A stretch of DNA of 64,000 nucleotides, taken from Balanoglossus misakiensis (Eukaryota > Animalia > Hemichordata). Each line of letters opens with the position of its first letter. Positions within the stretch are counted from its first letter, which is position 1. The stretch lies in contig CM082578.2 in the NCBI GenBank assembly GCA_040954595.2, forward strand, positions 5,562,831-5,626,830, written 5' to 3'. The translations under genes and the position numbers were made by a program. The notes under the pieces are model-generated. The model ran no database searches and was not told the DNA's origin. It was given only the letters and a program-made list of their open reading frames with translations. Positions 2,174 to 63,800 of this stretch are shown in pieces.

Positions 2174-4534
2174 CATACATACATACATACATACATACAT
2201 ACATACATACATACATACATACATACATACATACATACATACATACATACATACATACATACATACATACATACATACATACATACATACATACATACAT
2301 ACATACATACATACATACATACATACATACATACATACATACATACATACATACATACATACATACATACATACATACATACATACATACATACATACAT
2401 AACTTTGCGTGGACTATCCTTAGTTTGTCGGTTGATAACCTCATCCAAGCAACACAGCAGGTGCAACAATTACGCAAGGTCTAATTATTGTTAACAGAAA
2501 TTCCCGACTGTAACTTGGGTTATATGTGTTATAATGATGGCGTATGCGAAGATATCGGCGGTGGTGAATTCTACTGCACATGCCCAGTGGGATACACTGG
2601 TTACCAATGCGAAACAGGTAAGAGGACATCGTGGAAAATTAAAAAGAGTTTGAAAATTAATCAAAGTAGAACGAGATGGACATAATCGTCTCTTGTACAT
2701 GTATGTGCAATAAACAATCGCAATCTGTAAACGCGTCAATCGAGACTGCACGCCCATTATGAGAACATCAATTTACCAGTCTCTTCCGTATTTGGATACG
2801 TTGAATATTGCTGGAACGTCGGTTGGACAACCTGTCAGTGACCCAATCAAATAGCAATTGCACTTTTGCTTCTGGTTTTCAGAACTGCAAGATTGCAGAA
2901 CTGGGGAGCTCCATGCTATTTGTCTCAACGGCGGTACGTGTATGGATGAGGCCGGCGATGTCTGGTGCAACTGCTCGGACGGGTTCACCGGATTCCAATG
3001 CGAAAAAGGTAGACCAGTGTTTCATCTTGACCGCGGGATGAAGTGACTCACCCCCGGTTAACCTGTTGGCAACCCGCAGTACGTGTGACGCGCCGGCGTG
3101 GTGTTTGGCCTCAGGCACCGACCACTGACAACTTACATTATCCTTTTCCAATCCCCCGATTCCATAGAAACCAACGAACACCGACAGCCCCGTGACATCG
3201 TTAATATTTATTTTTTAAAGCTATTCTGTACACCCATGCCTCGACTATAACCGCTCTCCCAGTAACAATTAAACATACATGTAGGTTATAGTACACTATT
3301 ATGTATTTGTAGGAGAATGGCGTATTTTAAGATGACTGACACATTTCTCTCTTCTTTATATGTAGTGCTGCCAGTGTGCGATTCGTGTCACCCAGATGCA
3401 GACGCGTGTGACATGGCCCCGTGTATGTGTGGAGGTGAATGCGGAGGTGAGTCTCTGACTAATGTTATCCAAACTATCGTTTATTTCTCTCTTTGACAAA
3501 ATAACAACTACAGACACTTTGAGAGATGGCACGCTGTCCTTGTGTCGTATAGTTTACGACGAGTTTCAGAAAGTTGACCATTCTGAGAGTTTTTCGTAGC
3601 ATGTGGTGTTAACTTGAGTCTCGCGAATGCTGTTATAGGCCTACATGTAATATAATAGATCAGTCTCACGCTTCAACTTGTTAGTGAATTTGAAAAAAGT
3701 AGGATTGGCGAACTTTGAAGCCGACCACAGCTTAAGCTATTCAACACCCATCCTCAGAAATCACCGTGTGTCTTGCGTGTAACGGAACTTACGACACGGA
3801 TTGCGGCAAACCATCAGAAGAGAATATGGACGGCGTGCACATGATGCAGTGTCCCCATGGCTGCAAGGTAAGGGGAGAACCATTTGATTTATGGGGGTGG
3901 GGAATGGATGGAGGTTTTTTGGGGAAAATCGTTAGCAGATGAAAAAACTGTTGTCCAAAAAGACATACTGTCAACCGCCCGTCGTTGACCATGTTGCTTG
4001 CAATGATATGTAATGTTTGCAAAACGATGTATAGTCGACATTTATTTGCAGACTGAAAATGGCATGTATGAAGGCCACTGGCATGTACTGCGTGGCTGTG
4101 CCGAAGAAATGTGCTGGAGCGCGTGCAACGAGAGAGGCGGTGAGTTTTCTTTTTATTTTCAATCAGCGTCAGAATTAGATGTGTCCTATGGCAGTCTTAA
4201 TTAATGCCGGGTGTATAGTAGCAATTTATCAATGCAATAAAAATTGTACTGTTCCGGTAACACGCACTCTAGTAATTGGGTTAGGGAGGACTGCGTAAAC
4301 GATCCTGACAAACGTCGCTTTTGTTGTTTTTTTGTTTGTTTGTTTGTTTGTTTGTTTTTGCTTTATTTATTTATTTATTTATTTACAAACGCAGAGTGCA
4401 GAAAGTGTTGTGAAGGAGATTATTGCAATAACACGCCAGTGGATCCCGATAATCCAAGTTCTGCATCGACGTTTGCCTCGCGCGTGTCTACCATCCTCGC
4501 CATTGCTCTGGTGGGTTTCCTGGCCCTCGTTTAA
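1037..4534 (+). CDS. GPI-anchored EGF x3 + Ly6/uPAR (three-finger) domain protein, 8 exons, ~290 aa
   Basis: Exons 1037-1088, 1817-1972, 2498-2617, 2883-3008, 3366-3446, 3758-3867, 4052-4139, 4395-4534; all GT-AG with matching phases (873 nt). Signal peptide MKMKTYIFALFLSVLIT. EGF motifs CMNGAPC..CQCPEGFTGVFCE, CYNDGVC..CTCPVGYTGYQCE, CLNGGTC..CNCSDGFTGFQCE. LU domain from CLAC through RGC to CCEGDYCN. Hydrophobic C-terminal tail SSAS..TILAIALVGFLALV*. Confidence 0.9.
2093..2400. repeat. (ATAG)n/(ATAC)n tetranucleotide microsatellite in intron 2 of the EGF-LU gene
   Basis: Directly visible; source of the MYVC ORFs. Confidence 0.98.
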
Positions 4535-16039: not shown

Positions 16040-19000
16040 ATGAAACGCAGTAAAGTAGCACCATTTAGGGATAAGGTAAGTGAAACGGGCGATTTTAAAC
16101 TTGAAACGTAGAATTGTAGCCGTTTACCATCTGGCTGTAATAACTGCATGATATGAATGTTTGATATGAAGTTTTTCGCCATGGTAAACAAACAGCTGTC
16201 TTCGGATTTAGGACGACGTCGACCTGATGGTAACTCCCAACTTGAGAAAGTTCTTGTAACAATTGTGCATTAAAATAAGGCAGTTTTAATCGTTCAGTCA
16301 AAACAATTTCTGAAAGAATCGAATTTAATAGCTTACATCAAGCTAATTCAGTCGGAGCAAAATAGTCATCACGAGTAATTTCAAATATACCTTAAAGAGA
16401 ATTTTGTTTGAAATGAAAAGCTTTTCATGGTGTTTTACTGCTTGAAACATGCTAAAATACTTGTAAACTGTACTCAATCTCTACCACGTGCACAACGGAC
16501 AAGATTGAACATTCAGTGAATCAATTTATGGTCGCTACCCAGTTATTCAATGTTGAGACAACTTTTGTCTATATGTATACAGTGATGCATAATGTTTAGA
16601 TTACACGGGGCTTGTAAGGAAATCTCAGAGTGTGGATTCCTTTCATGTTATAGCTGTCATGTTCATGTCTTTTCTCAGTGTTTAGGGAGACCTTGCTAAC
16701 CGATATGTTAATCAAATTAACTTGAAATGTGATGACTAATCGACGAATTGTTTACCGTGATGTACAATGTAATACCAAAGTACCAAACATATTGCTTCCA
16801 ATTTGGACATTGTAGCCGTTAGATTGTACGCCCATGTAAGAAAAGTCCTGCTAGAAAGTGTGTCACATGCGACCCATACCAACAGCCGCAGACTAGACGA
16901 CGACCGCCTTTCAAACCAAGTGTTGCCGAGCGACACGCATAATCTCTCCCTCTCTCTCTTTCTTTCTCTCTCTCTCTCTCCCCTCTCAATCCTCTCTCTC
17001 TCCCTCCTTCTCTCCCTATTGTTATTGAATAGCTATTCCATGTGATTTATTATTCTACATGGTGTTTTGTATGGCTTCACTTTCGTGGTGGTGTTGCCAT
17101 GGTAACCGTTACTGGGCTGTCTTGTATGATTGACACGGATGGAGGGGTTCCCCCATCTTCCCATTGGTGGGTTCTACACCAATCAGAAGTGCGTTCTGGG
17201 TCACATGTTTAGCCCCAAGTTTCGGCTTTGTGCAACGTTTCCTACATGTAATTAGTCCGGTTTTATCCCTACCGGATAGCCAGCCCCGGGTCACCGATCG
17301 CGAGATCTAAGACGTGTTCGCCGTAGCAGTTCGGTGTGGGCCGATATCTTCGACGAGACGTTTGCTTTACGGCGAGTTCCGACCGCCATGTGTGGAGAGA
17401 GCTGGTCCGTCTGCGCTACCGGTTTTCAAAGGCGGGAACGTCCGGGCTTCCGTCACAATATATATATTTGGTTTTCTCCACAGATCGATGTCAAGACGGG
17501 CCAAAAACGGCGGCGGAAGGTTATCATCGGGGCCTTACTCACCACGGGGCTGATACTCGCTGGTGGTGGTGCTGCGGTTGGACTATTTACTGGTATGTAT
17601 TTTTTGTCCATCTCAATCACCGTTAGAGAACAACCATTTAATTTCTTCCCTTTATCAAGTTTTCTTGCAGGCGGGTAAACATTTATTGCTCTTCGAAATA
17701 TCCAAACATCTTTAATCGCACGTTAACTTATAAATATTCGTATATATTCATACTAACCTAGTCAGGCAATTTGAGTACATGTATATGTGGATTCTTTCTT
17801 AAGGTGGAAATCATGTGACAACGCCCATGCCATTGCATACACCACAACCATCGAGTCCAGGTAATTGATAACATAATCTCCTTTTCTAATTAAACATACC
17901 AAAAGTATTGCCATGGTCAAGATGATCAGAGTGTTTCAATAAATGTGTAGTACAAAATTTTACTATATTCTGTTGGATTTTCAATTATTTGCGAGTTATA
18001 ATATATATTTAAAAACGTTAACACTGTGTGCGAATATGTGTGTAAACGGTATACATGTAGTTGCTGTTAGTTGGCATCGATGGCAGATACGTGTGCGTAT
18101 ATAAATGGATTGGCTTCCATCTGCCCTTGGTCTTTTTGCTTCTTCTTAGTAGGCCAGTTTTAGCCACTATTCCTTATCACACGATACTTGACATGTTAGT
18201 AACACCAATGGCTGCAATTTTGTAACAACAGTATCTCACGTTGCCTTTGCTAACATTAATTATTAACCCTAAAATAGACACTAGCACAAAATGACGTGGT
18301 CAAATCTCTTTCTCTTTGAAGCATTGATCAGTGCGACTCCAACCCTCCGCGTCCATCCTGATTATATCCCGGATGTTGTGCAAGGTCGGCAGATTGACTT
18401 CCATTTGAACGTTGAACTGCCGATTGTTTACGCCAGCCGAACAGTAGAGGGCACTGCAGCGGATTTGTTTTCAATCAACGCTTTCCTGGCTGTGTCTGAC
18501 GTCAGCGCGGCTGGGGGTGACTTGGTTTCGTCGACAGCTTCCCAAGAGACTGCGCCCACGAATACCTCTCTGGGTAATACAACAATGGAAACTGGGACTT
18601 CCAGTGGTGCAGACAAAACAACCGGCGTGCGTGTCAATACAACAGAAACGTCAGCGCTCGTAACACTAGGAGATGAGGGGGCAACGCAGACCCACAGGAC
18701 AACAGCTGTTGTACCTGGACATGACGTCACACTTTCTAATCATATGGCTGTGCTGGTAGATGTTCAGGCCAACTTCGATCCTATACCGTGCGACCGTCAC
18801 GACTTCATTTGTGTTGAGATTTATCCAGTCGACACAGAAGTTTGGCAGTGGACAGACGACGTGAAGAGAACTGCCTGTGTAGAGATAGGAGATTGTCTTT
18901 GTGAGTATATACTAGTAAACGTTCAATAATGATGATTAGGTCGTGGCGTTCCCACATCCCCTATCAAACATTAGATTGATGTCATGACAAGCTTATGGTT

Positions 19001-22000
19001 ACCACGTGTGTACATTTGTGACGTTTTTGTACCGTATCAACACTTGCGTGACTCTATTTTACAGGTTAAGAAACACGTAAGCTAATAGTCGGAACATTTA
19101 ATACTCATTACATGCAATGTACCGTACCGCCTTAAGAATCGTGGATAACCAATTTCCAGGAAGTTTTCAATGCGCAATGCCATGTTCATACATAATGGTT
19201 GTTCATCTTTTCTTCACAGACCCCATTGATCCAATTGATATGCAAGTGTTTACAGACATAAACGTAACCATGGGAACATCACAGTTGTTATGTATTGGCG
19301 TTGAATTGTACCTCGGAAATGATACGGGAAACTTCACAAGTATGGAGGATAACTTATTCGACGTTCAGCTCTACTTCTCCGCCAATGTAACAGGGCATGC
19401 ACACTCGAAGAAAGTTTTAGCTGATCATATCTCACCAACAATGGCCGTCATTCTTCCAAATTCCAACATGAACATGGAAAACCTGATGGCAACCTACGAC
19501 CTCCGTGATATGGGCTGTGCAACGTACCCGTATGTATGCGCCGACATTTATCCTATGAAGGACGCCCCCTTTTTGTGGCTCTACGAAGACTGGTGTATCA
19601 CAAACTGTGTTGAGGTGACGACTTGTACACGTGAGTTAGAATTAAAATCATGGTTTCTATCCGTAATCAGAGCTTCAGAGATGCAACTATTTCCGGGTAA
19701 TTTTTCTCGTGCGTTTCCTTGTAGATATACAACTCGACACATGTAGCATTCTGCAGTGCATTTGTAGCAGATGCACATGTTGTTGATTGTCTATGGAACA
19801 TGAAGCTGGCAGATATACGTTTACTGGATCATCAGATATACGTTTAGCTTTCTTATTCCCTTCAGATCAAATTGACGAACTATCTCTCGATGTGAGTGTT
19901 AGTTCCAACAGCAATGTTGACTTCGTCATGGGTTCATCGAAACGCCTTTCCCTAGACGTTAGCATAGCGATTGGACCGGACACAGCACAGTTCTCCAGTG
20001 AAATTAACCATGTATTCGGCATGAATTTGAACCTGAAGACTACCGAGGAAGACCCAGCTCTTGTGACTTCTCCACCAACCAACGTCACTTCCGGTACCTT
20101 GTCTATCTCACCGAACATATCAATATCCATGTATAACGTTACTTTCATGGAAACAGACTTGGTTGATATCGGATGTGACGACGTCAAGTTTATCTGTGTT
20201 GATGTATTCCCTGGTGGTAACTCCGGGTTTCCATGGAAATGGTCCGGAGGCGACGTTCTCTCCGGTTGTCTGGCAGTGAACGGAACCTGTATCGGTAGGC
20301 TGCAAGAGATCTTTGCACCTTTTGCTCATTTTTGTCTTTGTTATGGAAATTTTGAATTTTGGAATATGGAAGCTTAGAGTGATCGCAGTTGTTCTCCTGG
20401 TGGAATTTCTCTGTGTTAACTCCTATATTCCTTTCATCTACATGTAGTTCAAGTGACCCCAGCAATTCAGAGCCCATTGCAAGTTAGCGGAACAGTTGAT
20501 GTTGTTATGGGAGTACTGAATGATTTCCATCTGTCAGTTACAATCACCACAGCATCCCACAGTACAGGATTGCTGTCTGGTCAACTGGTGGATCTGTTGA
20601 AAGTCGATGCGTTCTTGACCGGCTCGACCAATGGTGACAGAGTTGAAGCAAACTTACCCGCGGATCCCATGACCTTTCGTACAAATGCGCTTATCAACTT
20701 CGCGATCACGCCAAGTTTTGACCTGTCCCATGGAGAGTGCGAGAGTTTCTCTCATATCTGCGTCGAAGTGTCACCGACAGCCCACTCTAACTGGTTCTGG
20801 CGCACTCCAAACAACCACGTTGGCCCTGCTTGTGTACAGTTTGATTCCTGCCAGGGTAAGTAGAGAAGAGATTTCAATGATCTGACATATGCATAAACAC
20901 ATATCAGCCATACCACAATGCTGTGCAATACAGAGATTCACATCAGCAACACGAAGCACGATATGATCCTAGTTGTATAAGAATCGTGAATTTAGATCTT
21001 GAACAATAACTGATGTATACATAGATGCAAAGCAATGTTGACCGGATGACCTTTACATGTATATGGCCCATTGTATTGCATATCTATTATTTGCATTTTG
21101 CATATTGGCTAACCCACCTCCCAGGGCACATATGCATGTACAGTGAATCTGTCCTTATTAGAGAGGTGTCCTGCTTAGAGAGGTGTCCGTAACGACAGGT
21201 TTCACTGGTGAACTCCCCCTTGAACATTCCCTTGATATTCCATCGTATGAGCAGTTTATCAAGAATTTCTGTAAATTGCACCGCATATATAGCTTCCTGT
21301 TGACTTAGGGACCGTTCAGTTTTACGGCCGGGGGGGGGGGGGGGGCGGCAAAATCCAGGGGGGGGGGGTCACTTAAATTTTGAAGTCCAAAAGCGGGGGG
21401 GTCATCTGTTTTTTTAAACGTTTAGGGGGGGGGGGGTCACATACTTTTACCACCGAACTTTTGCTTTTGAGTCCACAAAATTGCAGTTTCGCGCCCTTTG
21501 TTTTACAAAATTTTCTAATGTGGGAGGGGGACACCCCCTCCGTCACCCAACCCCTTCATTCTCCGCCACATTTCGTTTTTTGCTGGTTTGTCTAGTGTAC
21601 CGGGGCAGGGTGCTTGCCACCCCAGCCCCACTGATGATAATATTTAACAAAGTAAATACATAAAGGAGAATAATCGTTTAAACCATTTCGCATAACTGAT
21701 ATTTTCGCGCTGCATCTTCTATATACTAGAAGTTTTATAAATGATGTCATGACGAAGATGACACCAAATCTTCTAACTTTGAGTGGAATGGCAAAAAGTA
21801 AAATTGGTCCTCCCAAACATTGAGATGAATTTGCTTTTGAGTTCATAAAAATGCAACTTTGAGCTCCATATTTTACAATTTTTTTACAAAATTTCCCACA
21901 CCCACCCCTCCATTCTTCGCAACATATCATTTGTTCGCTGGTTTGTCTAGTGTACCAGGGCAGACTTATTCCCACCCCACCCCTATGCTTACTTTGAGTG

Positions 22001-25000
22001 GAGTGGCAAAATCAAAATTTGTCCTGCCTAACATTGAGTTAATTTGCTTTTGAGTTCATTAAAATGCAACTTTAAGCACCGTATTTTACAAAATTTCCTT
22101 GTATTGACTTGTCATTTTATGTTGTTCCTAGATTTCTTTATTGCAACGATATTATTATATTATCCAATTACTTTAAGAAATTTATAATTGAGGTGTGAGG
22201 AGCCTCGTTCCCTTTATTGCATACAGTGTACATAGGATCAGGACGGCGAATGTTTTCAGCGTGGGGGGGGGGGGGTTATCATATTTTTGGGTCTGTCAAA
22301 GGGGGGGGGGGTCATCATTTTTGGGTGCTGGGTGAAGGGGGGTCGGCGTGATTTTGAAAACCCACGACACAAACTTGCCAGTTATTTTCCTAACGGTAAA
22401 CAGAAATGCCTCATATACTAATAAACGTTTTCCTGTATTCCTTCCATTTAGTTCAAGTGGCCCTGGCAAGTCCATTGCTAGTTAGCGGTGCCGTTGATGT
22501 TGTTACGGGAGTACCCAATGATTTCTATATGTCAGTTATGATCATGACGGCGTCTCACAGTACAGGATTGCTGTCTGGTCAACTGGTGGATCTGTTGAAA
22601 GTTGACGCATTCCTTTCCGGTCCATTCGGAACTGGACACAGAGTTGAAGCAAACTTACCAGCGGATCCCATGACCTTTCAAACAAATGCGCTTATCCACT
22701 TTGCGATCACGCCAAGTTTTGACCTGTCCCAAGTAAATTGCGTGAGTTTCACTCATATCTGCGTCGAAGTGTCACCGACAGCACACACTAACTGGTTTTG
22801 GTATGGACCAAACGGCCAGGTTGGCTCTGGTTGTGTACCTTTTACTTCCTGCAGGAGGGGTAAGTAGATAAGGGATTTCAATGACCTGACATATCGATAA
22901 TCACATGTCTGTCATACCATAACATTCATAACATTGTGTAAACACGATTGGAAATATGTTGAGATAATATGAATTCAAACGGTCTGTCAAAACCTGTTGA
23001 AAAATATGCTATACCAGGCTGTAATATTTCCCTTCAGGGAAATTGCTAAGTTTAAACCACTATACTATATGCAATTAAGTATATTTCATAAATTTTCACG
23101 TTACGAGTTGCGTTAACCGACTTGTATCCCGAATTTGCCGAGTTTTGCCTCAGTCAAAATTGGAGCCGTGGCTGCAGTCTGGGTGGGTGACGTCACTTCC
23201 GCCTGTAATGGGCTTTGAATGCTCGAATAGCATCTATGGAACATAGCCACATAAATCCCCTCGCGGGGTATCAGAGAGAGAGAGAGAAGCTACCTGTCGT
23301 CGTGGAGGGCCTGGGTGCGATTCCCACCGCCCACAATGCAATTTTTATCTAGTGAAAACTAAGTTTGTACAGTTTAACCAAAAACAGTCAAAACAATAAA
23401 GATTTAACTACTGTTACAGTAGATGCAACATACTCTAGGAGATAGGTACCTTTAATCAGAATGTTTGGTAATGAAGGTTTGAGAAGTCAATTCTATGTAA
23501 AAATCACACTGATTCCAAAAAAGCAGTCTTATTGACCCAACTCAAGACAAAATTGCCCTTTTGGAAACTTTTTGCCCCCAAAGAGTCATTTTTAGAAAAC
23601 ATTAAAAGCAAACTCTTTTCTTCACATTCGGGGATCTGATGACGTAAGATATGCTCATTCGATGTAAAATTTGGTGGAAATTCCAAACAATTGACCCCAC
23701 ACAATTGCCTTTTTTGGCGCCCAAAAGGTCATTTTAGACAAATTCAAAACAAACTGTTTTCTTCATATTTGGTGATCTGATGATATATATCAATTCTATG
23801 TTAAAAATGGTGACTATTAAAATTGAAGTAGTCTTATTGACCCCACTTAATACAAAAATGCCATTTTGGCCACTGTGGGTCAAAAAAGGTTCAGAACCAC
23901 CTTAGTCATGTTAGTGGTCTGTTTCTAAACAAGGCAAATGTTAGTTTTACCCAGCCTGAACATTAAATGAATCAAGCATCAATTACAGATTGATTTTTTG
24001 TTGGCCGACAGCTTGTAACAAGGAGGATGGTTACGACAGAGGCGGAAGTGACATCAACAACGGTCGGCATAATAGGAAAGATAACGCTGACGCGTGTTGT
24101 GAAGACTGCAGGAGTAACGTGCTTTGTCGCGCCTGGACTTTCAACAAAGTTGATGGCACTTGTTGGTTGAAGAATCCAATTCCCAATAAAAATCAAAGGT
24201 CAATCGCTGTGTCAGGAGTCGTCCAGAGATCAGGTAACCCTCAATATTTTGTGAAAACAATGTTTAATTTCAACCCCTAAATGGATGTTATAGAAAAATG
24301 TGTCATCGAAACAGACATCATGTTTATTTGTTTTTGACCTTCGGTACATATTTGGTGACATTTTAAGAGTGATCTGACTATATATCACTGGAAAAGTGAA
24401 AAAAATGCATACTTTCAGTCTCAAATAGTTGCCATGGAAATGTGGGTCATCAATATGGACATCACATTTATTTGTGTTGACCAAGGAGACCACTTTTGTA
24501 AAATGTTCATGCTAATACTTTCCTATACATGTACCTCTGCATCCAGAACAGGTACAGCATTGGCGTTTGGACGGATGGGACTACAACGAAAAGCCAATTT
24601 TTTTTTCACCTATATCATTAATTATGTGCATACCTAATTTCAGGCTAACCAATAGAGATAGAGATAGAGGTCTGGTTTTTGTTGGACCTGGACCATTATG
24701 GGTTCAAAACTTTTTGCTCAAATTTAGTTGACCTCGGATGACATTTGATCTTAATATGACATACATGTAAATGCGAATTACTACATAATTTAAGGACCTT
24801 CAGACTTCACATTTGGTAAGAATAAGCACACACCTGTACTGGTTACTCATATGTTGCTATGTGCTATTTTGGCTTTGGCCCGCTATTGCTACTTACAGCT
24901 ATATTTTTACTTTTATTCTTTGTATCCACTTTGGTTTCTTGGTCGGCTACCTTAAAGGGACAAAGTCTCTCTCTCGCTGCCCCTTTTTCATGACTTGGTG

Positions 25001-25448
25001 GGCGCATTTTCTCCAAACAGAAACTTAATAATGCGAAAGAAATAGAATTATGTGGTCCATGTACGTATCCTTGAGTTTTAACTTCTCCCCAAATTTCGAA
25101 GTGACCTATGACCTACTGACTGAAATTGTGTATTGTTTGACTTTTCCGTTGGTGTGCTTCCAAATGATCTGTTGTTGCGGCGGCAAGTTTTCCTTTGTTC
25201 GATACTTCCGTCTCATCATCGACGTTCATGCAGCTCACATTTCAGTTGTTTCTTTCCATACATTTTCAGTTAGACAATAAATGGCGAGGCGACCGTCGAT
25301 GTGGACCCAATTTTCCCCTTCCTGATGGCAGTCCTGCAGAGTGTGACCCAGATAGTTACCGCCCTCTTGCTGTTCATCTATATTTTATGGTGGAAATACA
25401 GCAGCTCACTGCTCATGCTCAGAATGCATCGACTACAGAAGTGAGTAG
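16040..25448 (+). CDS. Type II single-pass membrane protein: five ~135-aa 4-Cys repeats + PAN/Apple domain + frameshifted hevein-like (chitin-binding type 1-like) exon
   Basis: Exons 16040-16075 (MKRSKVAPFRDK, phase 0; least certain), 17484-17592 (KRRRK + TM VIIGALLTTGLILAGGGAAVGLF), 18322-18900, 19220-19630, 19866-20294, 20448-20855, 22452-22859, 24012-24233 (all phase 1-1 GT-AG), and 25274-25440/25448. PAN motif GSDI..ACCEDCRSNVLCRAWTF..GTCWLK..VSG. Confidence 0.8.
21308..22379. mobile_element. PIF/Harbinger-type MITE, copy A (one TIR lost), in the intron between duplicated exons
   Basis: Starts TTA|GGGACCGTTCAGTTTTACGGCCGGGG. Colinear in reverse orientation with 58265-59240; similarity stops at ...acacaaacttgcc (22379), about 35 nt short of the second terminus. 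Confidence 0.85.
23485..23870. repeat. Imperfect ~150-bp tandem repeat (about 2.5 units), probably transposon-internal
   Basis: Recurring ttgacccc..aattgcc..ttttgg / gtcatttt(t)aga..caaact.ttttcttca.att.gg.gatctgatga / tcaattctatgt blocks. Confidence 0.65.
24012..24233 (+). CDS. PAN/Apple domain exon of the type II membrane protein
   Basis: ACNKEDGYDRGGSDI...DACCEDCRSNVLCRAWTFNKVDGTCWLK...AVSG matches the PAN/Apple cysteine pattern; phase 1-1 exon of 222 nt. Confidence 0.85.
24956..25000. mobile_element. Solo TTAA-flanked terminus related to the 25650-25996 MITE
   Basis: TTAA|AGGGACAAAGTCTCtctcTCGCTGCCCcTTTTTCA matches the TIR of the neighbouring element. Confidence 0.7.
25274..25448 (+). 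pseudogene. Frameshifted hevein-like/chitin-binding-type Cys-rich exon
   Basis: DNKWRGDRRCGPNFPLPDGSPAECDPDSYRP, then an extra 2 nt (cct CT tgc) shifts frame before CCSSIFYGGNTAAHCSCSECIDYR. Exon is 167 nt versus 165 expected for phase 1-1. Confidence 0.75.
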
Positions 25449-27430: not shown

Positions 27431-30400
27431 TTTTTTTCTTTTTATAAAATCTTTAATTCAGCAATTGCAGAGTATACAGGATTATGTTACACATACTTCA
27501 TGAAATTTACAATAGTTCTATCGTTTTTTACATAGTTTATATAATACAGCTCTTCAGTAAGAAATCTCTTCATATTTTGCTGTTTTAGTATCCTTGCTTT
27601 GTATACCGCAAAGGTGCTTAACATTATGATTAGGTTTCAAAGGTTCGAGCTTGTGTAGCTCTAGATAGTAACCATAGATTACATGCTTCCAAGATAAGCT
27701 GAACTGAGTGTTGTATGATCTATTAAGGGCTCGAGTAACAGTAGCCCAGAAATGTGTTACATTTTTACAATCAGAAAGAAAATGCTTACAATCTTCAATT
27801 ACATTACATACTTCACACAATGGAGAGGCTTCTCTCTTCCATTTAAATAAATTCACTTTGTGTGGAAGTTTATCATACAATAAACATAAATTGAATTGAG
27901 CAATCTTTTTAATCTGTATTTTTTCACTTTGTTTGCCCATATCATACTCCAGTTCGGATAAACACCGATTTTGTTTTCCCACACCTTTGTCGCATATGAT
28001 TTTTCTACATACTTATTTACCAGATTCCAATAGAAATCTTTACAGCAAAAAGTAAAAACGTCCGTATATTTTCCCTGATGATTTTGTTTCATTATAGCTT
28101 TTCTTTGATGAGTAACTATTAACTCATTTCTTACATTTCTCATACACTGCTTCCATTGATCTGGAATAGCTTTTTTTAAAATCATGTACTGAGTGATCCA
28201 GTTTCTTTTTTTCTGTAGCTTGTTTAAAAGACAGTGCTGATCAATGAAATTACCATTAACAAATAAGTCGGCTATATGAATAAATCCAGCCTCGATCCAC
28301 TCAGTGAAAAATAAAGGATGGTTATTTACCGTTATATTACAATTCCCCCAAATTATTTGTTCTCCCACCTTATTGGGATTTAAATCTATACGTTGCCCGC
28401 TTTGCACAACCTCGTTCCAAATCTTTAAAATAGACGAATAAAAACTTGGCAGACCTTTCGTGACATAACATATGCCTGTGTTATTTAGGTTGTACGTAAA
28501 TATACGCTTGGTCCCCCCAAACTTTTCCAGGTGGTAATCGATGACTATCTTCCATGTCTGGTTATCGCTGTTTACAAGTCTTGATACCCATCCACACATC
28601 AGAGCTTTTACAGTCGAACTTACATCAAGCATCTCTATACCTCCACTTTCAATCTTATTAATGATAATACGCTTTCGAATTTTTCCCTTTTTCCCACTCC
28701 ATAAAAAGTTGTAGAAAAGCTTGTTTAGTCGCACTATCACATCTTTTGGTGTTACAATCATAGAGGCTAGGTATACAATTTTAGAAAACGCAAGACTCTT
28801 CAGAATGGTTAGTTTACCAAAGACTCTCAAATATCTTTTCTTCCAACTATCTAATAATTTCTCAATTTTTTCTAATTTTTTGTCCCAATTTAAAATGTTC
28901 AACTCTTTCTTGTTGTGGCCAAAGTAAACCCCCAAAGCCTTAATGGCTTTATTGGACCATGGAATAAGGCCGATATTACCCTTCCTTTTCCAGGACCCTA
29001 GCTTCAGCCCTTCAGTTTTTTCTCTATTCAATTTTAAGCCAGAGTACTTTCCATATTGGTCAATAATATTCAGTACTCGGGCCAAAGATTTTACATTCTC
29101 GATGTACACTTGGGAATCATCCGCCAATTGAGTGATTTTTATGATCTTATTCCCCACTTTAAAACCAATATTATTCTCATTGCGGATAACCTGGGCAAAT
29201 AACTCTGCAACTATGATGAATAGTAGAGCTGACAATGGACAACCCTGCCGTATACCTCTTTGTAATGCAAATGGAGAGGTTATCCAACCGTTGTTGGTAA
29301 CTGCACTCCTACATTCGGTGTAGATTGTTTTAATCCAGGTGATAAATGAATTACCAAACCCAAACTTTTCCAGCGCTACAAACATAAAATTGTGTTCTAC
29401 CATATCAAAATCTTTACAAAAGTATAAGAATATGATGGCCCCTCCTTTATTCCTTTTCTCAGCAAAATCAATCAAGTCTTCAATCAGACGGACATTTTGA
29501 CCACTAAACCGACCTTTGATGTATCCCACTTGATCTGTGTTAATAATTGTGGGAATAACCTTCTTTAGTCTATTTGCAAGTACGCATGACAGAATTTTGT
29601 AGTCGTGATTTAACAATGAGATGGGTCTCCAATTCTTCAAATCGAGCCTTGTGTCTTTTTTGTGTATAAGCGTGATGACACTTTCACGCTGCGTAATAGC
29701 AAGCTTCCCTTCGTCGAAACCCTCATTAAAAGAGTCAATAACAAGATTCTTCACGCTGTCCCAGAACATACGATAAAATTCTATGGGAATACCATCCAAC
29801 CCAGGTGTTTTATTACTTTTCATATGCCAAATAGCTTTTGTGCATTCCTCTACCGTTATACTACCTTCCATCTTTTCTGCAAGATTACCTGTTCATTTAG
29901 AGTTTGTGCTAATGTTATTAATATAATGTCTTATATCATTTTCGTTCACCCCTGTTGTCGTATACAGATCACTATAAAAATCTCTCTGTGCATTACGGAT
30001 ATCTTCTGTTTTTGTTAAAATTCTACCATTTACACAAAGTTTTGTGATCTGCTTGTCCCTGTATCTCTTCCTCTCCAACCCCAGGAAGTATCTGCTGTTT
30101 CTTTCACCCTCTTCATACCATTTTATTCTGGATCTTATCTGCACCCCCGTAACCTGTGTATATAAATTTGGTTAAGCTGGTTCATTTTGCTTTCGTATTC
30201 TTTAATCATGTCTTTGTCCCTGTTAGAGGAGTTTAACAACTTACTTTCGAAATTCATGATCTCATTTTCTAAAATCTTCAGCCTAGATTTTCTTTTCCTT
30301 TCCTTATCTTTTGCATATTTCATGCTAACTTCTTTAACTTTTATTTTTAGAATATCCCATAAGTTTCTTTTGTGGCCATTACTATTACAATACTTCAATT

Positions 30401-32088
30401 ATTATTATTATTATTATTATGCTTTATTTAAAGAGGGTAGTCTGTGTTACAAAGTAGAATTGTAATATACAACAGAGCCCTCAAAGGCGAATGAGAATGA
30501 ATACAACAAGGAAAAAAAAACACTGAAAAAATCAAATCAAGTCGCAATGGCGGAAACATTCATGAAATCTAATCAAGTGATGAACCTTCATTTATAAATT
30601 TAGTGTGAAAAAAGTTACGTAGTTGTGACTTGAACTGTGACAGACTGTATATACTTCTTATAGACAGGGGAATATTGTTCCAGATATTTGTTGCTCGATA
30701 CATAAAAGACCTTTGCCCAGTTGCTGTTTTAAAAGTGGGCACATACAAATTAGCGTTGCTGACAGATCTAGTGGTAAAATTGTACATCTCAGAAACATAG
30801 GAAAATTCATTTAAATAATCAGGCGCCAGGCCATGTAGTATCTTGAAAGTTTGAACAGCAATGAAATACTCAATTCTAATATCAATGGGCAACCAATGAA
30901 GAGTTGTCAGAAGAGAACGAGAAGGAAATGTAATGTCTACTCCTAAAATTACTCTGCCGGCTCTTTTCTGAAGTTTATAAATTCTCTGTAGATTGGTTTT
31001 TGATGTGTTGCCCCAAACAGTGCAACAGTAATCAATTATAGAAAGGAAAATAGCATTATAAACCAACATAAGAGTATGCCTTGGGGTCAAAGGTCGCAAT
31101 TTCCTCAGTACCCCAATCCGCATTGACAATTTTCTACTTAAGTTATCTATATGAGTATCCCATGTTAAAGCATTGTCAATCTCTATTCCAAGAAGTGTGT
31201 GAGAAGAAACACAAGAAATGCAAGTATTATTGATCCTAATATTTGGAGTGACACTGTGCTCGGACACATTATTAACCTTTGGGCGAGAGGCAACAATCAT
31301 CCATTTTGTCTTGGTGGTGTTAATTGACATGGCATTATTTGAAACCCAGGTGGAAATTGGTAAAATGTGTCAGTAATCACTGCCTTAATTAAGCATTTAT
31401 ACTCTTCGTCCTTAAGCAAACTGGTATTTAACTTCCAATAGTCGGGACCCCTTTCAGAATCTGTGAAACCTATTTTTAGCGAAACAGCATTGTGATCTGT
31501 TCTAACAGTGGGCCTTATGTCAGCGGAATGAACGCTGGCAAGAAGCTGCTTTGAAATCAGCCAAAAATCTATTCTACTTGCTATAGACCCAATGTAACCT
31601 GTCGCCAGGTGTATTGTAGCGTATCAGGATGCAGTGTTCTCCATACATCACACAGCGTAAACGACTTAGTGAGGTTACAAAGTTTTTTAGACCGCACATA
31701 ATAGCTCTTAACCCCACGTCTATCAATATTGACATCGAAAACAGTATTGAAGTCCCCACCAATAAGGATATAACCTTCGGGTGAAGCGTTTTTGTGTACG
31801 AAGCTTTTCAGAGAAGTCAGGAACGCTTCTCTTTCGCTATGGACATTCGGTGCGTACACATTTACAATTGTGAACAGAATTGCGACTCCTTTTTATACTG
31901 TGGTTGGTACCAAAGGAGTTGGTAATGTGCCCTTTCCATTCAAAACTGATTTGAGTGGAGAGTTTTTCGTCCCAGTATGTCTCTTGCAACAGCACAATGT
32001 CTGCTTTTTGTTCTCTTGTCCATTTGAAAACCTGTTTCCGTTTTTGTGACTCTCTCAGTCCTCTGCAGTTCAGAGACAGAAAATGCAT
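27431..32088 (-). mobile_element. Decayed L1/Tx1-clade LINE ORF2 (APE endonuclease - RT - CCHC knuckle), interrupted by a nested element
   Basis: EN: SLNCRGL..LLQET, YAPN..IGGDFN..DVWR..YTW, SRIDFWL..TDHNAV..GPDYWKLN. RT: KTPGLDGIP, NWRPISLLNHDYKI, GIRQGCPLS, QLADD. Knuckle CEVCNVIEDCKHFLSDC. ATTAAA and an A-rich tail near 27431-27457. Several frameshifts; motif LDFxKAFD mutated to LYFCKDFD. Confidence 0.93.
30399..31365 (-). mobile_element. 5'-truncated CR1/L2(Crack)-type LINE nested inside the Tx1-like element
   Basis: ORF 30569-31330 INTTKTKWM..LLGIEIDNALTWDTHI..IDYCCTVWG..LQKRAGRVI..LHWL..RSFMYRATNIWNNIP..FK is the CR1/L2 RT C-terminus. 3' AATAAA + (TAA)n tail at 30399-30430. The host frame rejoins exactly across it (..KAVITDT|LKYCNS..). 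Confidence 0.9.
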
Positions 32089-41390: not shown

Positions 41391-42061
41391 ACACAGACAC
41401 AGGCAGACAGACATATAGACACAGACAGACAGGCAGATAAAAAAAGATGGATAAGATAGACAAACAGACAAATATGTACACAATTAACTCAAGGCTAGGT
41501 CTAGCCAGTGTACAACAGGATTAAACTCAATGTTCGATAGAGGTCACACTGGGAACAAAGGTCAATCTGTTTTAGTTCATTGGGAACTAAAATATTATTA
41601 CATGTACTACATAAACAGACCATATAATGCACCGAATCCAAAAGATAGCACAACAACAATTACCACGATGACAACAACAATAATTAATAAAAATGATATA
41701 AAATAATAATCCGGATAATAATACGTCTGATGTCAACGAAAAGTTCGCTATAGGGCTATCTTGGCACAGAAAGAATAAAAACGATGTCCGATCCGTTTTG
41801 TATTGATAGAACACAAACAGATTTTTTATTATTTACTTTGATATGTTGGCACCTCACTTCCAATAAGAGTGCCAAACCCCTTCACGTGGGTTGTACAAAA
41901 CACTTGAACCAATTGTTGACCTTCCCCTTACCCCGCATAGGTAATGCTGACCTTATTCCAATAGTCCAGGTCAATTCTGCAGTGTACCGCTCGTTGCCAA
42001 ACGCTGTGACTCGTCACGAAGACGCAGAGAACAACTGTCGATCATCAGCGTTGGCGGGAAG

Positions 42062-58054
<15,993 letters not shown>

Positions 58055-59240: not shown

Positions 59241-60881
59241 TTATTCATTCTCAATGTGATGTGTCCTTGCAAAGTGAATGTGCAGGATTTTTTTAGTGTC
59301 ACTATCGAAAACAATTTCTTTCACTGTCTCTATTATTTTCAAGAATTCCTATAATACTCTCATCAGAAGTCCATATTGTCAGTTTATGACCAATCTGTGA
59401 TTACCGTTGAAAGTTCTTGAGGAGTCGTTTTTCTCCAATTAAATTTCCCCTTGCCATGTAAATACTGGATTTTTGACTTATGGATACTGGCTATGATTGC
59501 AATTACTGTCTGGTGTAGCTTGAATATGTGTAGTTTTTATTTGAAGTGTTTTCCCTCTTAGTTTACTCTCTTTTGGCAATTGATGTTCATCAAGATTTAT
59601 CAACTGTAACTGATCCCTTGTGTTGGGATTGATGATGTAATGCAATGCAATCGCAATAGCTGTCATTCTAGTTAAGATGTGATGCTAATACGAAGTGACA
59701 TGAGAACTCTTGGATGGATATGATTGGAGGGAGGACAAAGGGAAAAAAACATAAATTCTCATGGGCCTATCAATTTTGTCATAATTTGTGTTTGGGGGCA
59801 TGAGAAAAAAATCGCAAGAAAGTGGAAAATCTTCCGCCCCACCCCCTGGAAGTAAAATGTGAACACTCCCTAAGGTGATATAAAATTTCCCTGTCATTTC
59901 GTGTAGTAAGTGCCACTTTCCCATGTTGCACTTTGCATTCATGTTATTTTAGCTCTTGTTAGCTTATGCTCCGATAAAACGCGTTCTTATGAACTAGCAC
60001 CTTTTTCGTTGTTTTGTCCATACCCTTTGGTATCCTAAGGGTGGCCCATTACATGTGTACGTGTATCGACGATCCTCGATTCTGATATGATTCTGGTGCT
60101 GATATGATTCAGGTTCAATATCATTAATAGCTAGAAAGATACATGTCGACCTTGACCTTGTAAATTCAGATAACATATATCTGTATGAGTGTGAAGTTAC
60201 TATCAGGCCATCAAAGATATAAACTGTAGTATAATGCGATTGTACACTATATTTTGTGCGAACCAGGGAGCTACATGTAATTCACTGACATGGTCGAAAG
60301 TGTCAAACTATATTGAAAATGCTACTCCCATAGCCGTTCATGTTCCACACTGGCAACCAATGACCGCCGTGTCATCATGACATAGCGGCACCTGTAAAGG
60401 TTAACATTTAACCTTTAATTTGACCCCAACCGCTGAACGATTTGTATATTATCTGCTTTAAAATCGTCATGGAAGCTTTCGATTTTTTTTCTTATTTTAA
60501 TGTTGTCTGAAATAATAAAATAAGCATACAAAGTAACCAGGCTAGGTTCTGTGTTGTGGATTTGGTTTATTTGTGCATGAAACGCGATAACATGAAACTG
60601 AACAAACAAAACGACACATCGGACAGATAATCATTATATGCGTTAATATTTCACGAAGATAACAAGGCTAAACATCTAGGGTTACAAAGTGCGATTATTT
60701 GACCCGAGTCGCCCTTCTGTCGGGACATCGACCAGGCTCCAATAGTCCGTCTGCCTGGTGTGGGGTGGACTGAAGAATGAAAACCCCAAAATAATATTCA
60801 GTCGACCACCGCAGGTGTCCTGAACTGTTGGGTAAGCGCCTGGCTTCTGCAATCGTTTTTGTCACCAACAACGTTGGCAAG

Positions 60882-63800
60882 ATGGCGGATGGAGAGGGCA
60901 CTATGCAGTGGTTCTGTGGAGCAGATTCGACTGAGTTTATCGATTTCAAATGGGACCTTGAGAGTACATTGTACAACTCGTGCTTCGTTGACTTGGTGGA
61001 GGCATGCGTTCACACATTTTTCTTGATAATTTCAACCGCCATCCTGGTCATCCTCGGCTGCTGTACCGCTCTACGTCATTTCCGCTCTAAAACGCTCCTC
61101 GTGTACACGGGCCACGATGTGAGGTACGTCACGTTCATGTGTGCTCTTGTAGTTCTTCTTGGGTGGGTAGGGGAAGGAGTGCTGACCGACCTGACCCGGA
61201 ACGAGACGACACAGCCCCACCTGTACATACCGCCGTCGCTGGCCCTGATAAGTGGTGTAATGTCCATCGTGTATTATTACTATGCCGAATATTGGAGTCG
61301 GCCAAAACTAGCGTTTTTACTGGTCCTGTACTGGATACTTGCCATTGGGAGTAAGATCATAGTGTTAGTTAACCTCGCGCACGATGACGCAACCGGCATC
61401 GAAATTCTGAGATTCGATGTCACTATACTCCTACTCGTCGCATATTGTTTATTCGTTGTGGTCGAACTTAATCTACTGAGAACCAAGGTAAGTGTTTCAA
61501 GTTCAGTGAAAATATCCTTCCTTAATTGTAATGTTGTTGGTTATTTTTTATTTAATTGCACAAATTCGACTCACTTATACACTCTCCAGTACCTACACAC
61601 CACATTCGACATGTCGTTGCAATGCATCCATCACTATAAATTCATGTAATTCTATCTCTTAAGTGAGACACGCCCTGAACAATTTGACGAAAGGGAAAGT
61701 GCATCAAGGGCCAGTATACGTAATACTTAAATATTATCCAAGTAACTTTTACTGCATGTAAACTAGAACATTGTTGGTATAATGCACACTACCTGTCTAC
61801 GACTAATTCTGTCGTGTCCTGATGAATGATCAGAAAGGCACACCCTGCAGTGCCTATATCGAAGCTTCTCGTTTTATTCTCCAGGTTTTTGGATGTCTGT
61901 ACAGCGAAGACGAAATGTCGGGGGATTTCCATAAGGCAGATTTGACTTTCGTCCACGACTACACCAGTTTGTTGAGCAGGATCACTTTCCATTGGGTGAA
62001 TTGGCTACTGGTGCGTGGTTATAAGCGCCCTCTGGATATGGAGGACCTTGGTTCGATGTCCGACACACACGGAGCCAAACAACAGTATGATCTCTTCCTG
62101 CGTGCGTATGGGAAAGAAAAGGTACATGCATGCATGCATGATATCGTCTGCGAAGATGGCAATAGTTAGGATAGAAATGCATTAAATCAGGGTGACGTTT
62201 GTTCGTGGCAAACATGTTTTATTTGGCCAGAGGTCACACGTCATGTGGTGAAAAGCGTTGTGATTCCAGTATTTCCTCGGTCGACTTTCAATGTATATGG
62301 AAAATGTCAATTCTGAAATCTGTGTTCCGAAAGATACATTTCTAGGAAGTTTTCGTCATGAACCTTGACATCTGAAGGTCAGCTTATATTGATATGGTAT
62401 GCACACATTCAAATTGTGCTAATACTCCAAGGCAAACGACGTATTGCATACTACATGTATACTTTGAAATGGTCCCTTTGTTGTAGTTGGCAAACAACTG
62501 AAAGTATGTTGTCGATGAGTTATACTTCCAAACGCACATCTGAAATAGACAGCTCCTCTGATTCTTTATTTCAGAAACGGGCTAAAGAGAAGAATGCTAC
62601 TCCATCCCTGTGGAGAACACAGGCCACTGCTTATGGGGGCCAAGTCTTCCACGCAGGAGCATTGCTGCTACTGAGCATGCTCCTGGGATTTGTCGCTCCA
62701 ATGGGGATAGGAGTCGTCATAAACTACGCCACAAATTTGTATTTCGGATCGGAAGGAGAGATTGAAGAAAACGTAAGTTGTCGTATTTATAATCCAAGCA
62801 CAATTAAGCCCAAGAAGCGAAATTATTACCAGGAAACTGATCCCTCTATACAACGCAAGTCACTTTGAATATTTGTAAACTGTACAAGATGAAGCGTGTA
62901 AGGTAATTTTAAGCGTTTGAAGAAGAATATCTTTCTTTGATACAAACGCGTACACTCGATAAGAAGATAAATCAATTGTTGCACACACATACATGTACCG
63001 AGCGAAAGTACTGAGGGACACTAGCTGTATCGTATGGTCATGTGGAAACATTTATTTATTACAATAACTTCAATTCTCTTCGGAAGTCGATTCCGTTTTC
63101 TATACTAAACGCCCCAATTTTCCATAACATACTATGCGTAACAACCAGTTTAATTTGTTGACGAGAAATGAAACACGGACTTGAATTCAGTTGTCAATAA
63201 TAACAGTGCCCACAGTTGACACAACAGGTGTTTTGTGACTTAATACATTAAAATAAATACGGCGAAAAATGTCAAAAGTTACAGCAGTGAAGTTTTAATT
63301 AACTGCCATGCACAAAATGTCATCATTTTCTTTTTTTCACAGTTGTCTCAGTACGTGACGGTTTACGAATACTTCAGTAATGGTTTCGTCATGATAGTGG
63401 TCATGGTCATAAGTCTTGTCTTCAAATCATTCGCCTTCCAGTATTCTAACTTCCTCATGTTCATTGAGAGTGTACATTTTCGAACAGCTCTTCAGGTAAC
63501 TTTTCATTTGTTCCACGCTGACGCAACACTGTAGACTCTATGCAGAGATCATACAAAAGGAAGGCAACAACGACTGTGGGCGCAAAGCCCCATTTGGTTT
63601 CAAATGAGTACATTCTGAAGGATGCACATTGAGCTTGTATACTGCCCCTGGAACTTTCTACAACATGTAATTAGGGGCACAACACAGATAATGGCTGACG
63701 AAATAGACGGAGAAACAGTTGCAGACAGTTTGGCTTAGAAGAGTCCTAGAGTGTAGTGTAGTGTCGTGTAGTGTAGTGTAGTGTAGTGTAGTGTAATGGA

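What the first reader, a model, noticed from the sequence alone, without database searches (positions are those of the whole stretch)
18322..22859. Five tandem exon-encoded ~135-aa 4-Cys repeats of an unrecognised extracellular domain
Seen: five symmetric phase 1-1 exons (579, 411, 429, 408, 408 nt). Each has alternating hydrophobic, beta-strand-like stretches and ends in a shared motif, roughly D-x3/5-C-x4-[FYH]-[IV]-C-[VA]-[ED]-[IV]-x-P...W-x-[WY]...C-x5/6-C (e.g. DLVDIGCDDVKFICVDVFP, DLSHGECESFSHICVEVSP). Unit 1 carries a Ser/Thr-rich mucin-like insert. Established: symmetric phase-1 exons mark shuffled extracellular modules. Inference: an Ig-like beta-sandwich module that I cannot match to a named family, forming a stalk on a type II membrane protein.
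Basis: partly seen in the sequence, partly recalled or inferred. Interest (0 to 1): 0.8.

Follow-up and report, generated by a model that had tools for sequence, protein, structure and literature searches.

The report
SURF-module stalk on acorn-worm receptor
The five repeated exons encode divergent copies of the four-cysteine 'SURF' module already described in sea-urchin collagen, here predicted to fold as an immunoglobulin-like stalk that likely holds a sugar-binding head away from the cell surface in what is probably an acorn worm.

Summary
The five exons are real: same coordinates, 3n lengths, phase 1-1, open frame, four conserved cysteines. The module is not new. A model built only from the 12 four-cysteine SURF modules of sea-urchin alpha-2 collagen (Q26639) ranks these five exons 1-5 among 2160 reading-frame stretches of the window. 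Profile-profile probability is 96.7% against at most 1% for 60 controls. SURF has no Pfam model, so it looked unnamed. The copies are divergent (17% identity to collagen SURFs) and group with hemichordate proteins only. A predicted model (pLDDT 90) is an all-beta sandwich with only generic Ig-like matches (best Z 7.1). The predicted product is a type II membrane protein: short tail, anchor, five SURFs, a PAN domain, then a frameshifted cysteine-rich exon resembling the N-terminal domain of PGRP3. Ptychodera relatives carry the same stalk units with a C-type lectin plus LDLa head. Likely role: a spacer stalk for interchangeable glycan-binding heads. No RNA was available. Known module in a new setting; modest interest.

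The parts
16040..16075 (+). Likely first coding exon (ATG, 12 codons, basic; phase-0 donor AAG|GTAAGT)
   Evidence: Best-scoring donor of the 2 listed upstream, in frame with the anchor exon. A KVAP motif resembles KVEP at the start of P. flava P0008. Inferred, no RNA.
17484..17592 (+). Basic cytoplasmic stretch and uncleaved signal-anchor (type II transmembrane helix); phase 0 to 1
   Evidence: Highest hydropathy window of the joined frame; basic residues on the N side.
17804..17860 (+). 19-aa Pro/Thr/Ser linker exon, phase 1-1
18322..18900 (+). SURF module 1, most divergent, with a 59-aa Ser/Thr-rich insert (about 18501-18677)
   Evidence: Family HMM E 3e-12. Against the collagen-only model it is marginal: E 0.8, matched by 1-2 of 1000 shuffles.
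19220..19630 (+). SURF module 2 (two extra Cys)
   Evidence: Collagen-only HMM E 5.8e-5; 56% identical to P0001 unit 1.
19866..20294 (+). SURF module 3
   Evidence: Collagen-only HMM E 5.4e-4; 50% identical to P0001 unit 2.
20448..20855 (+). SURF module 4 (the unit folded; pLDDT 89.9)
   Evidence: Collagen-only HMM E 0.011; above all 2000 shuffles; 43% identical to P0001 unit 3; model.
22452..22859 (+). SURF module 5, recent duplicate of module 4 (75% aa identity; 3' intron flank also alike)
   Evidence: dS 0.33, dN 0.16.
24012..24233 (+). PAN/apple domain exon, phase 1-1, in frame with the SURF exons
   Evidence: Pfam PAN_4 E 1.6e-10, 41 bits, cut-off 27; frame continuity.
25274..25440 (+). 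Cys-rich hevein-like exon, 167 nt, frameshifted near 25365
   Evidence: The 5' part matches residues 4-29 of PDB 4z8i (PGRP3), E 1e-6. The 3' part, in another frame, matches residues 33-55 weakly, E 4.3, and Pfam Chitin_bind_1 at E 0.43.

Best explanation
The five exons are divergent SURF modules, each predicted to fold as a disulfide-pinned Ig-like beta-sandwich, which likely stack into an extended, glycosylated stalk on a predicted type II membrane protein and would hold a PAN domain and a hevein-like (currently frameshifted) module out from the cell as a likely glycan-binding head. Shown: exon anatomy, homology to SURF, PAN domain, one open frame of 886 codons from the ATG exon through PAN, and a different head (C-type lectin plus LDLa) on the matching stalk units in Ptychodera. 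Predicted: the fold. Inferred: splicing as drawn, type II topology, a spacer role with roughly 4 nm per module (textbook size of Ig-like domains, not measured), and recognition of microbial or matrix glycans by the head. The head would have been exchanged by shuffling of phase 1-1 exons. Confidence is about 0.95 that the units are SURF homologues and about 0.6 for the stalk-plus-glycan-head mechanism.
For: Homology. The window-only profile hits Q26639 at E 1e-31, with matches on all 12 modules, 11 of them with positive scores. The collagen-only profile, cut by cysteines alone, ranks the five exons 1-5 of 2160 stretches; HHalign gives 96.7%, E 3e-10 over 119 columns, against at most 0.97% for 60 shuffled or reversed controls. 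Units 2-5 beat all 2000 shuffles each, half of them with Cys held fixed. Q26639 has vWC + 12 modules + triple helix, the layout the review gives for SURF (PMC2852846). Fold: pLDDT 89.9, pTM 0.83, eleven short-to-long strands and one short helix; matches are Ig-like, CARDB, arrestin-N and transglutaminase sandwiches, and CARDB-type for a crinoid relative. Modular use: 176 modules in the 38 proteins examined, beside vWC, collagen, Sushi, Kazal, FN3-PTP, GPS, SEA, laminin-B/Ig, SUEL lectin and C-type lectin domains. P0008 is a type II protein with units matching 3 and 4, then lectin + LDLa. 11 N-glycosylation sequons lie in units 1-3.
Against: No RNA evidence for any junction. Mean identity to collagen SURFs is only 17%, unit 1 alone is not significant against the collagen-only model, and the Trp of the collagen 'LW.L..FGS' motif is Phe or Leu here. 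The hevein-like exon is frameshifted and lacks one Cys, so that part of the head is probably not made intact. PAN domains also bind proteins (established knowledge), so glycan binding is inferred. No SURF module has a tested function in the papers I could read (PMC10817530 calls fibrosurfin 'of unknown function'). A passive-spacer role is therefore an inference, and many relatives consist of SURFs alone with a hydrophobic C-terminal tail (P0002, P0006, P0020, P0023, P0029), which suggests the module can bind something itself.
Confidence: 0.6

Rival explanations
1. The SURF modules are themselves the binding part: the protein ties the cell to collagen fibrils or other SURF-bearing matrix proteins through SURF-SURF or SURF-collagen contacts, and the head is secondary.
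For: The sea-urchin 5-alpha N-propeptide with 11 SURFs stays on the fibril surface, and SURF proteins were suggested to act in mutable tissue (PMC10817530, passages). SURF-only proteins with a hydrophobic tail exist. Hemichordate proteins with vWC + SURF or perlecan-like parts exist (P0014, P0018, P0026).
Against: The window's units fall in a hemichordate-only group (32 of 112 rows, SH-like support 97; FastTree, 133 columns, many forks unresolved), apart from all collagen-type SURFs. Units 1-3 carry 11 sequons and a mucin-like insert, which suits a spacer. No binding data exist in the papers read.
Confidence: 0.25
2. The gene is a decaying duplicate (pseudogene in the making) and makes no working protein.
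For: The last recognisable exon is frameshifted and has lost a Cys. LINE fragments follow at 27554-31892. No clear terminal exon was found between 25450 and 41900.
Against: 886 codons without a stop across nine exons, intact splice sites, conserved Cys/Trp, and dN/dS about 0.49 between units 4 and 5 (one pair, rough count). The frameshift may be an assembly error or may only clip the last module.
Confidence: 0.1
3. The unit is a separate hemichordate domain family that only converges on SURF through a similar cysteine pattern.
For: 17% mean identity to collagen SURFs; shorter loop between Cys2 and Cys3 (21-23 against 25-32 residues); separate branch in the tree.
Against: The match runs over 119 columns, far beyond the cysteines. 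Cys-fixed shuffles score at most 12.3 bits against 22.3 for unit 2, and none of 1000 reaches the real score in units 2-5. Intermediate proteins from crinoids, sea stars and acorn worms are found by both ends.
Confidence: 0.04

Closest known systems
SURF ('sea-urchin fibrillar') modules of Strongylocentrotus purpuratus alpha-2 collagen (Q26639 / NP_999675; P0074), also reported in 5-alpha and 1-alpha collagens and fibrosurfin (PMC2852846 section 3 read; PMC10817530 passages)
   Same: About 140 aa, four Cys in the C-terminal third with C-x6-C then C-x4-7-C, tandem arrays, significant profile homology.
   Different: Here in a predicted type II membrane protein with no vWC and no triple helix; 17% identity; shorter Cys2-Cys3 loop with a W-x-W-like motif; the core Trp of the collagen modules is replaced; one unit has a mucin-like insert; hemichordate-only branch. 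Fibrosurfin's own sequence was not fetched.
Ptychodera flava uncharacterized proteins P0001 and P0008 (XP_070569079)
   Same: Units matching window units 2-3-4 (P0001) or 3-4 (P0008) in the same order, 41-56% identity for P0001; P0008 has the same N-terminal basic stretch and anchor.
   Different: Their head is C-type lectin + LDLa repeats. No such exons were found in the window by tblastn, where PAN + a hevein-like exon follow instead.
Ig-like beta-sandwich stalk domains (CARDB 3idu, Spo0M 5cl2, transglutaminase C-terminal, ICAM, RPTP-mu)
   Same: Predicted all-beta sandwich of similar size; Z 5.7-7.1, rmsd about 3-5 A over 82-116 residues.
   Different: No match reaches Z 8, identities are 0-13%, Foldseek TM by query is at most 0.45. 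The cysteines are not placed as in the canonical Ig pair. Shared fold class only.
N-terminal Cys-rich domain of peptidoglycan recognition protein 3 (PDB 4z8i, 4zxm; recalled as the amphioxus chitin-binding domain)
   Same: Both halves of exon 25274-25440 align to consecutive parts of it.
   Different: Frameshifted here, one Cys lost; no PGRP domain seen in the window. The chitin-binding label is recalled, and a paper search found nothing.

Membership tests
SURF module | About 140-residue module with four cysteines in its C-terminal third | tested here: met
   Q26639 modules 139-149 aa, spacing x6-7 / x25-32 / x4-7; window units 135-142 aa (192 with insert), spacing x6 / x21-23 / x5-6.
SURF module | Sequence homology to the reference modules of the cloned 2-alpha collagen | tested here: met
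   Reciprocal HMMs and HHalign 96.7% with controls. 4 of 5 units pass singly; unit 1 passes only through the family model.
SURF module | Occurs as a tandem series | tested here: met
   Five consecutive in-frame exons.
SURF module | One module per frame-preserving exon (recalled from Exposito 1995; PMC2852846 says 16 SURF exons fit without disturbing the frame) | tested here: inconclusive
   Met in the window.
SURF-bearing fibrillar collagen (2-alpha / 5-alpha type) | Series lies between a vWC domain and a minor triple helix | tested here: not met
   The flanking exons are an anchor, a linker and PAN. The protein is not a collagen; the module is shared.
Immunoglobulin superfamily proper (V/C/I-set) | Canonical disulfide between Cys about 55-75 residues apart (established knowledge) and a Pfam Ig hit | tested here: not met
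   All four Cys lie within the last 40 residues; no Ig family at E up to 1.
Ig-like beta-sandwich fold class | Two-sheet all-beta sandwich that superimposes on Ig-like domains | tested here: met
   Predicted model only; 252 of 48161 chains at Z 5 or more, best 7.1, none at 8. The class is supported, no single family is.
ZP-N / VERL repeat | Four Cys spread along the domain (recalled) and a Pfam hit above cut-off | tested here: not met
   One weak hit, E 0.054, 14 bits against cut-off 25, in 1 of 5 units; Cys clustered at the C-terminus.
Type II single-pass membrane protein | Uncleaved N-terminal anchor preceded by basic residues, extracellular C-terminus | tested here: inconclusive
   Sequence fits and P0008 shares it; the first exon and topology are unconfirmed without RNA or experiment.

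The most novel reading that the evidence does not exclude
SURF is not a sea-urchin collagen oddity but an echinoderm-plus-hemichordate Ig-like building block. Acorn worms have grown a separate branch of it into a family of cell-surface receptors whose conserved SURF stalk carries swappable recognition heads (C-type lectin + LDLa in Ptychodera, PAN + chitin-binder here), and the stalk itself docks on collagen fibrils. That would be a cell-side partner for the SURF-coated fibrils implicated in mutable collagenous tissue.
Probability: 0.15. Interest if true: 0.6.

Novelty: new variant of a known kind. Interest (0 to 1): 0.3.

Why it matters
SURF has been named since the 1990s but has no Pfam model and, in the papers reachable here, no structure, no tested function and no record outside echinoderms (searches; open-licence papers only, the primary JBC papers were not held). 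This locus and its relatives extend the module to acorn worms and to membrane proteins, give a confident first fold prediction and supply material for a family model. Single modules become easy to express and test, which bears on the open question of what SURF proteins do in mutable collagenous tissue. It is not a new domain or a new mechanism.

Tried and rejected
Pfam: no family above cut-off for any of the 5 units or for the collagen modules. Weak VERL, ChpA-C, DUF7043 and Flavi_NS1 hits on module stretches were set aside as partial or additive matches. PDB by sequence: nothing under E 0.08 with either alignment. ESM Atlas: no usable hit for unit 4; for P0020 only a 0.75 CARDB lead and TM under 0.5. 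RNA: no run was listed, which is no evidence either way. No whole genome is held, so paralogues in this species were not counted. A collagen-type SURF folded without alignment gave a poor model (pLDDT 54, eight strands) and was not used for fold search. In the alignment used for the good model, the first 15 or so columns are out of register in many rows, and about 6 of 47 rows are misaligned or empty over the unit. No sixth unit, and no lectin or LDLa exons, in the window. No clear terminal exon after 25440. The tree used 21 chosen proteins plus the window units, 112 modules of at least 95 model columns; shorter matches and the other fetched proteins were left out. PMC4450265 and PMC11959729 (passages) added nothing on the module. 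Supplementary files were not consulted. Earlier-finding look-ups by place and by sequence were empty.
Full report
Observation. Each has a pyrimidine-rich AG acceptor and a GT donor, a length divisible by three and an open phase 1-1 frame. Aligned, they share four Cys, a Pro and a Trp, at 19-76% identity to unit 4. Unit 1 carries a 59-residue insert with 37% Ser/Thr. Units 4 and 5 are a recent duplication: 75% identical, a similar 3' intron flank, dS 0.33 and dN 0.16. No further unit lies in the window.

The gene. Upstream lie a 19-codon linker exon (17804-17860), an exon with a basic stretch and a hydrophobic helix (17484-17592) and a likely ATG exon (16040-16075). Downstream lie a PAN_4 exon (24012-24233, E 1.6e-10) and a Cys-rich exon (25274-25440). 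From the ATG exon through PAN the frame is open for 886 codons. The last exon is 167 nt long. Its first half matches residues 4-29 of PGRP3 in PDB 4z8i (E 1e-6); its second half, in another frame, matches residues 33-55 of the same chain weakly. It is therefore a frameshifted hevein-like module, or an assembly error. None of the junctions is confirmed by RNA (one search listed no run).

Relatives. Pfam names nothing in the units. Word-based searches found two Ptychodera flava proteins: P0001, whose three units match window units 2, 3 and 4 in order and are followed by C-type lectin and LDLa, and P0002, with eight units and a hydrophobic tail. A full HMM scan of 1.84 billion representatives gave 37 hits at E up to 0.001. 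I obtained source records for 29 of the 37. Of these, 28 name an organism: 12 hemichordate and 16 echinoderm; one is unnamed, and 8 were not looked up. An iterated model finds 176 modules in the 38 proteins examined, up to 31 in one. Pfam on 35 of the hits shows the module beside vWC, fibrillar collagen, Sushi, Kazal, HYR, SEA, laminin-B/Ig, SUEL lectin, FN3, receptor phosphatase and GPS domains. The window's organism is likely an acorn worm, inferred from the nearest hits.

Identification. One hit, an Acanthaster collagen, has vWC + 7 modules + triple helix. [quoted passage not shown] Searching with that region returned S. purpuratus alpha-2 collagen, whose cluster holds the 3198-residue Q26639 with 12 such modules. 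Three tests tie the window to them. First, the window-only profile hits Q26639 at E 1e-31. Second, a profile from the 12 modules, cut by their cysteines with no window-derived model, ranks the five exons first to fifth among 2160 stop-free stretches (E 6e-5, 5e-4, 1e-3, 0.011 and 0.8; the sixth is 1.4). Third, HHalign gives 96.7% over 119 columns, while 60 controls reach at most 0.97%. Units 2-5 beat all 1000 plain and 1000 Cys-fixed shuffles; unit 1 does not quite. Against: mean identity is only 17% and the collagen core Trp is replaced. In a FastTree of 112 modules, all five units sit in a 32-row hemichordate-only group (support 97), away from collagen SURFs; the alignment is short and many forks are open. 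Q26639's modules also lack a Pfam hit, which explains why the domain looked unnamed. The primary papers (PMIDs 1380962, 11259425, 14665629) were seen only as reference-list entries.

Fold. Unit 4 with a 47-row alignment gave pLDDT 89.9 and pTM 0.83, almost all strand. Foldseek returns nanobodies, CARDB and similar sandwiches at TM 0.45 or less. The wide structural search gives 252 chains at Z 5 or more, best 7.1, none at 8. This supports an Ig-like fold class and no particular family. The cysteines are not the canonical Ig pair. A collagen SURF folded without alignment was too poor to compare.

How it most likely works. A short basic tail and an uncleaved anchor would put the C-terminus outside. 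Five sandwiches, three of them rich in sequons (11) and one with a mucin-like loop, would form an extended stalk. PAN and the hevein-like module would sit at the tip as the recognition head, most likely for glycans. The best support is comparative: P. flava P0008 has the same type II start and units matching 3 and 4, but ends in C-type lectin + LDLa, so the stalk is kept while the head is exchanged through phase 1-1 exons. The main rival is that SURFs bind matrix themselves, as suggested for the 5-alpha propeptide that stays on collagen fibrils (PMC10817530, passages). SURF-only proteins with hydrophobic tails keep that open. A decaying gene is less likely given the long open frame.

Novelty. 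The module is known by name. What is added is a divergent hemichordate branch, a membrane-receptor setting with a swapped head, and a fold prediction. Seven literature searches found no paper placing SURF in hemichordates or membrane proteins or giving its fold, but the library holds open-licence papers only. Two earlier notes of this scan reached the same SURF reading for receptor phosphatases in another genome. I saw them after my own tests and do not count them as evidence. Verdict: real feature, known module, new variant and context; interest 0.3.

Noticed in passing
window 25274-25440 (+): Frameshifted hevein-like exon whose two halves match consecutive parts of the N-terminal domain of PGRP3 (PDB 4z8i); one Cys also lost.
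   Followed up: partly
window 27554-31892 (-): Reverse-transcriptase and endonuclease-like reading frames of apparently two broken LINE elements, read from the translation only.
   Followed up: no
window 41951-57947 and 60795-63531 (+): Two tandem ABCC / sulfonylurea-receptor-like transporter genes, judged from the translations; not tested against a family library.
   Followed up: no
window 3266-4531 (+): Small Cys-rich exons ending in a CCxxDYCN motif and a hydrophobic tail, like a GPI-anchored Ly6/three-finger protein (label recalled).
   Followed up: no
P0034, P0040 (Ptychodera, Saccoglossus): Receptor tyrosine phosphatases with six SURF modules before FN3 repeats, pairing one-to-one between the two species.
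   Followed up: partly
P0018, P0026 (Glandiceps, Ptychodera): Perlecan-like proteins (LDLa, Ig, laminin B) carrying 4-7 collagen-type SURF modules.
   Followed up: partly
P0020, P0023, P0029, P0031: Small proteins of about 320 aa made of a signal peptide, two SURF modules and a hydrophobic tail, likely GPI-anchored; the simplest objects for testing SURF function.
   Followed up: partly
P0007 (Anneissia japonica, 5459 aa): 31 tandem SURF modules followed by a likely membrane helix near residue 5072.
   Followed up: no
P0035 (S. purpuratus): Adhesion-GPCR-type protein with two N-terminal SURF modules.
   Followed up: no
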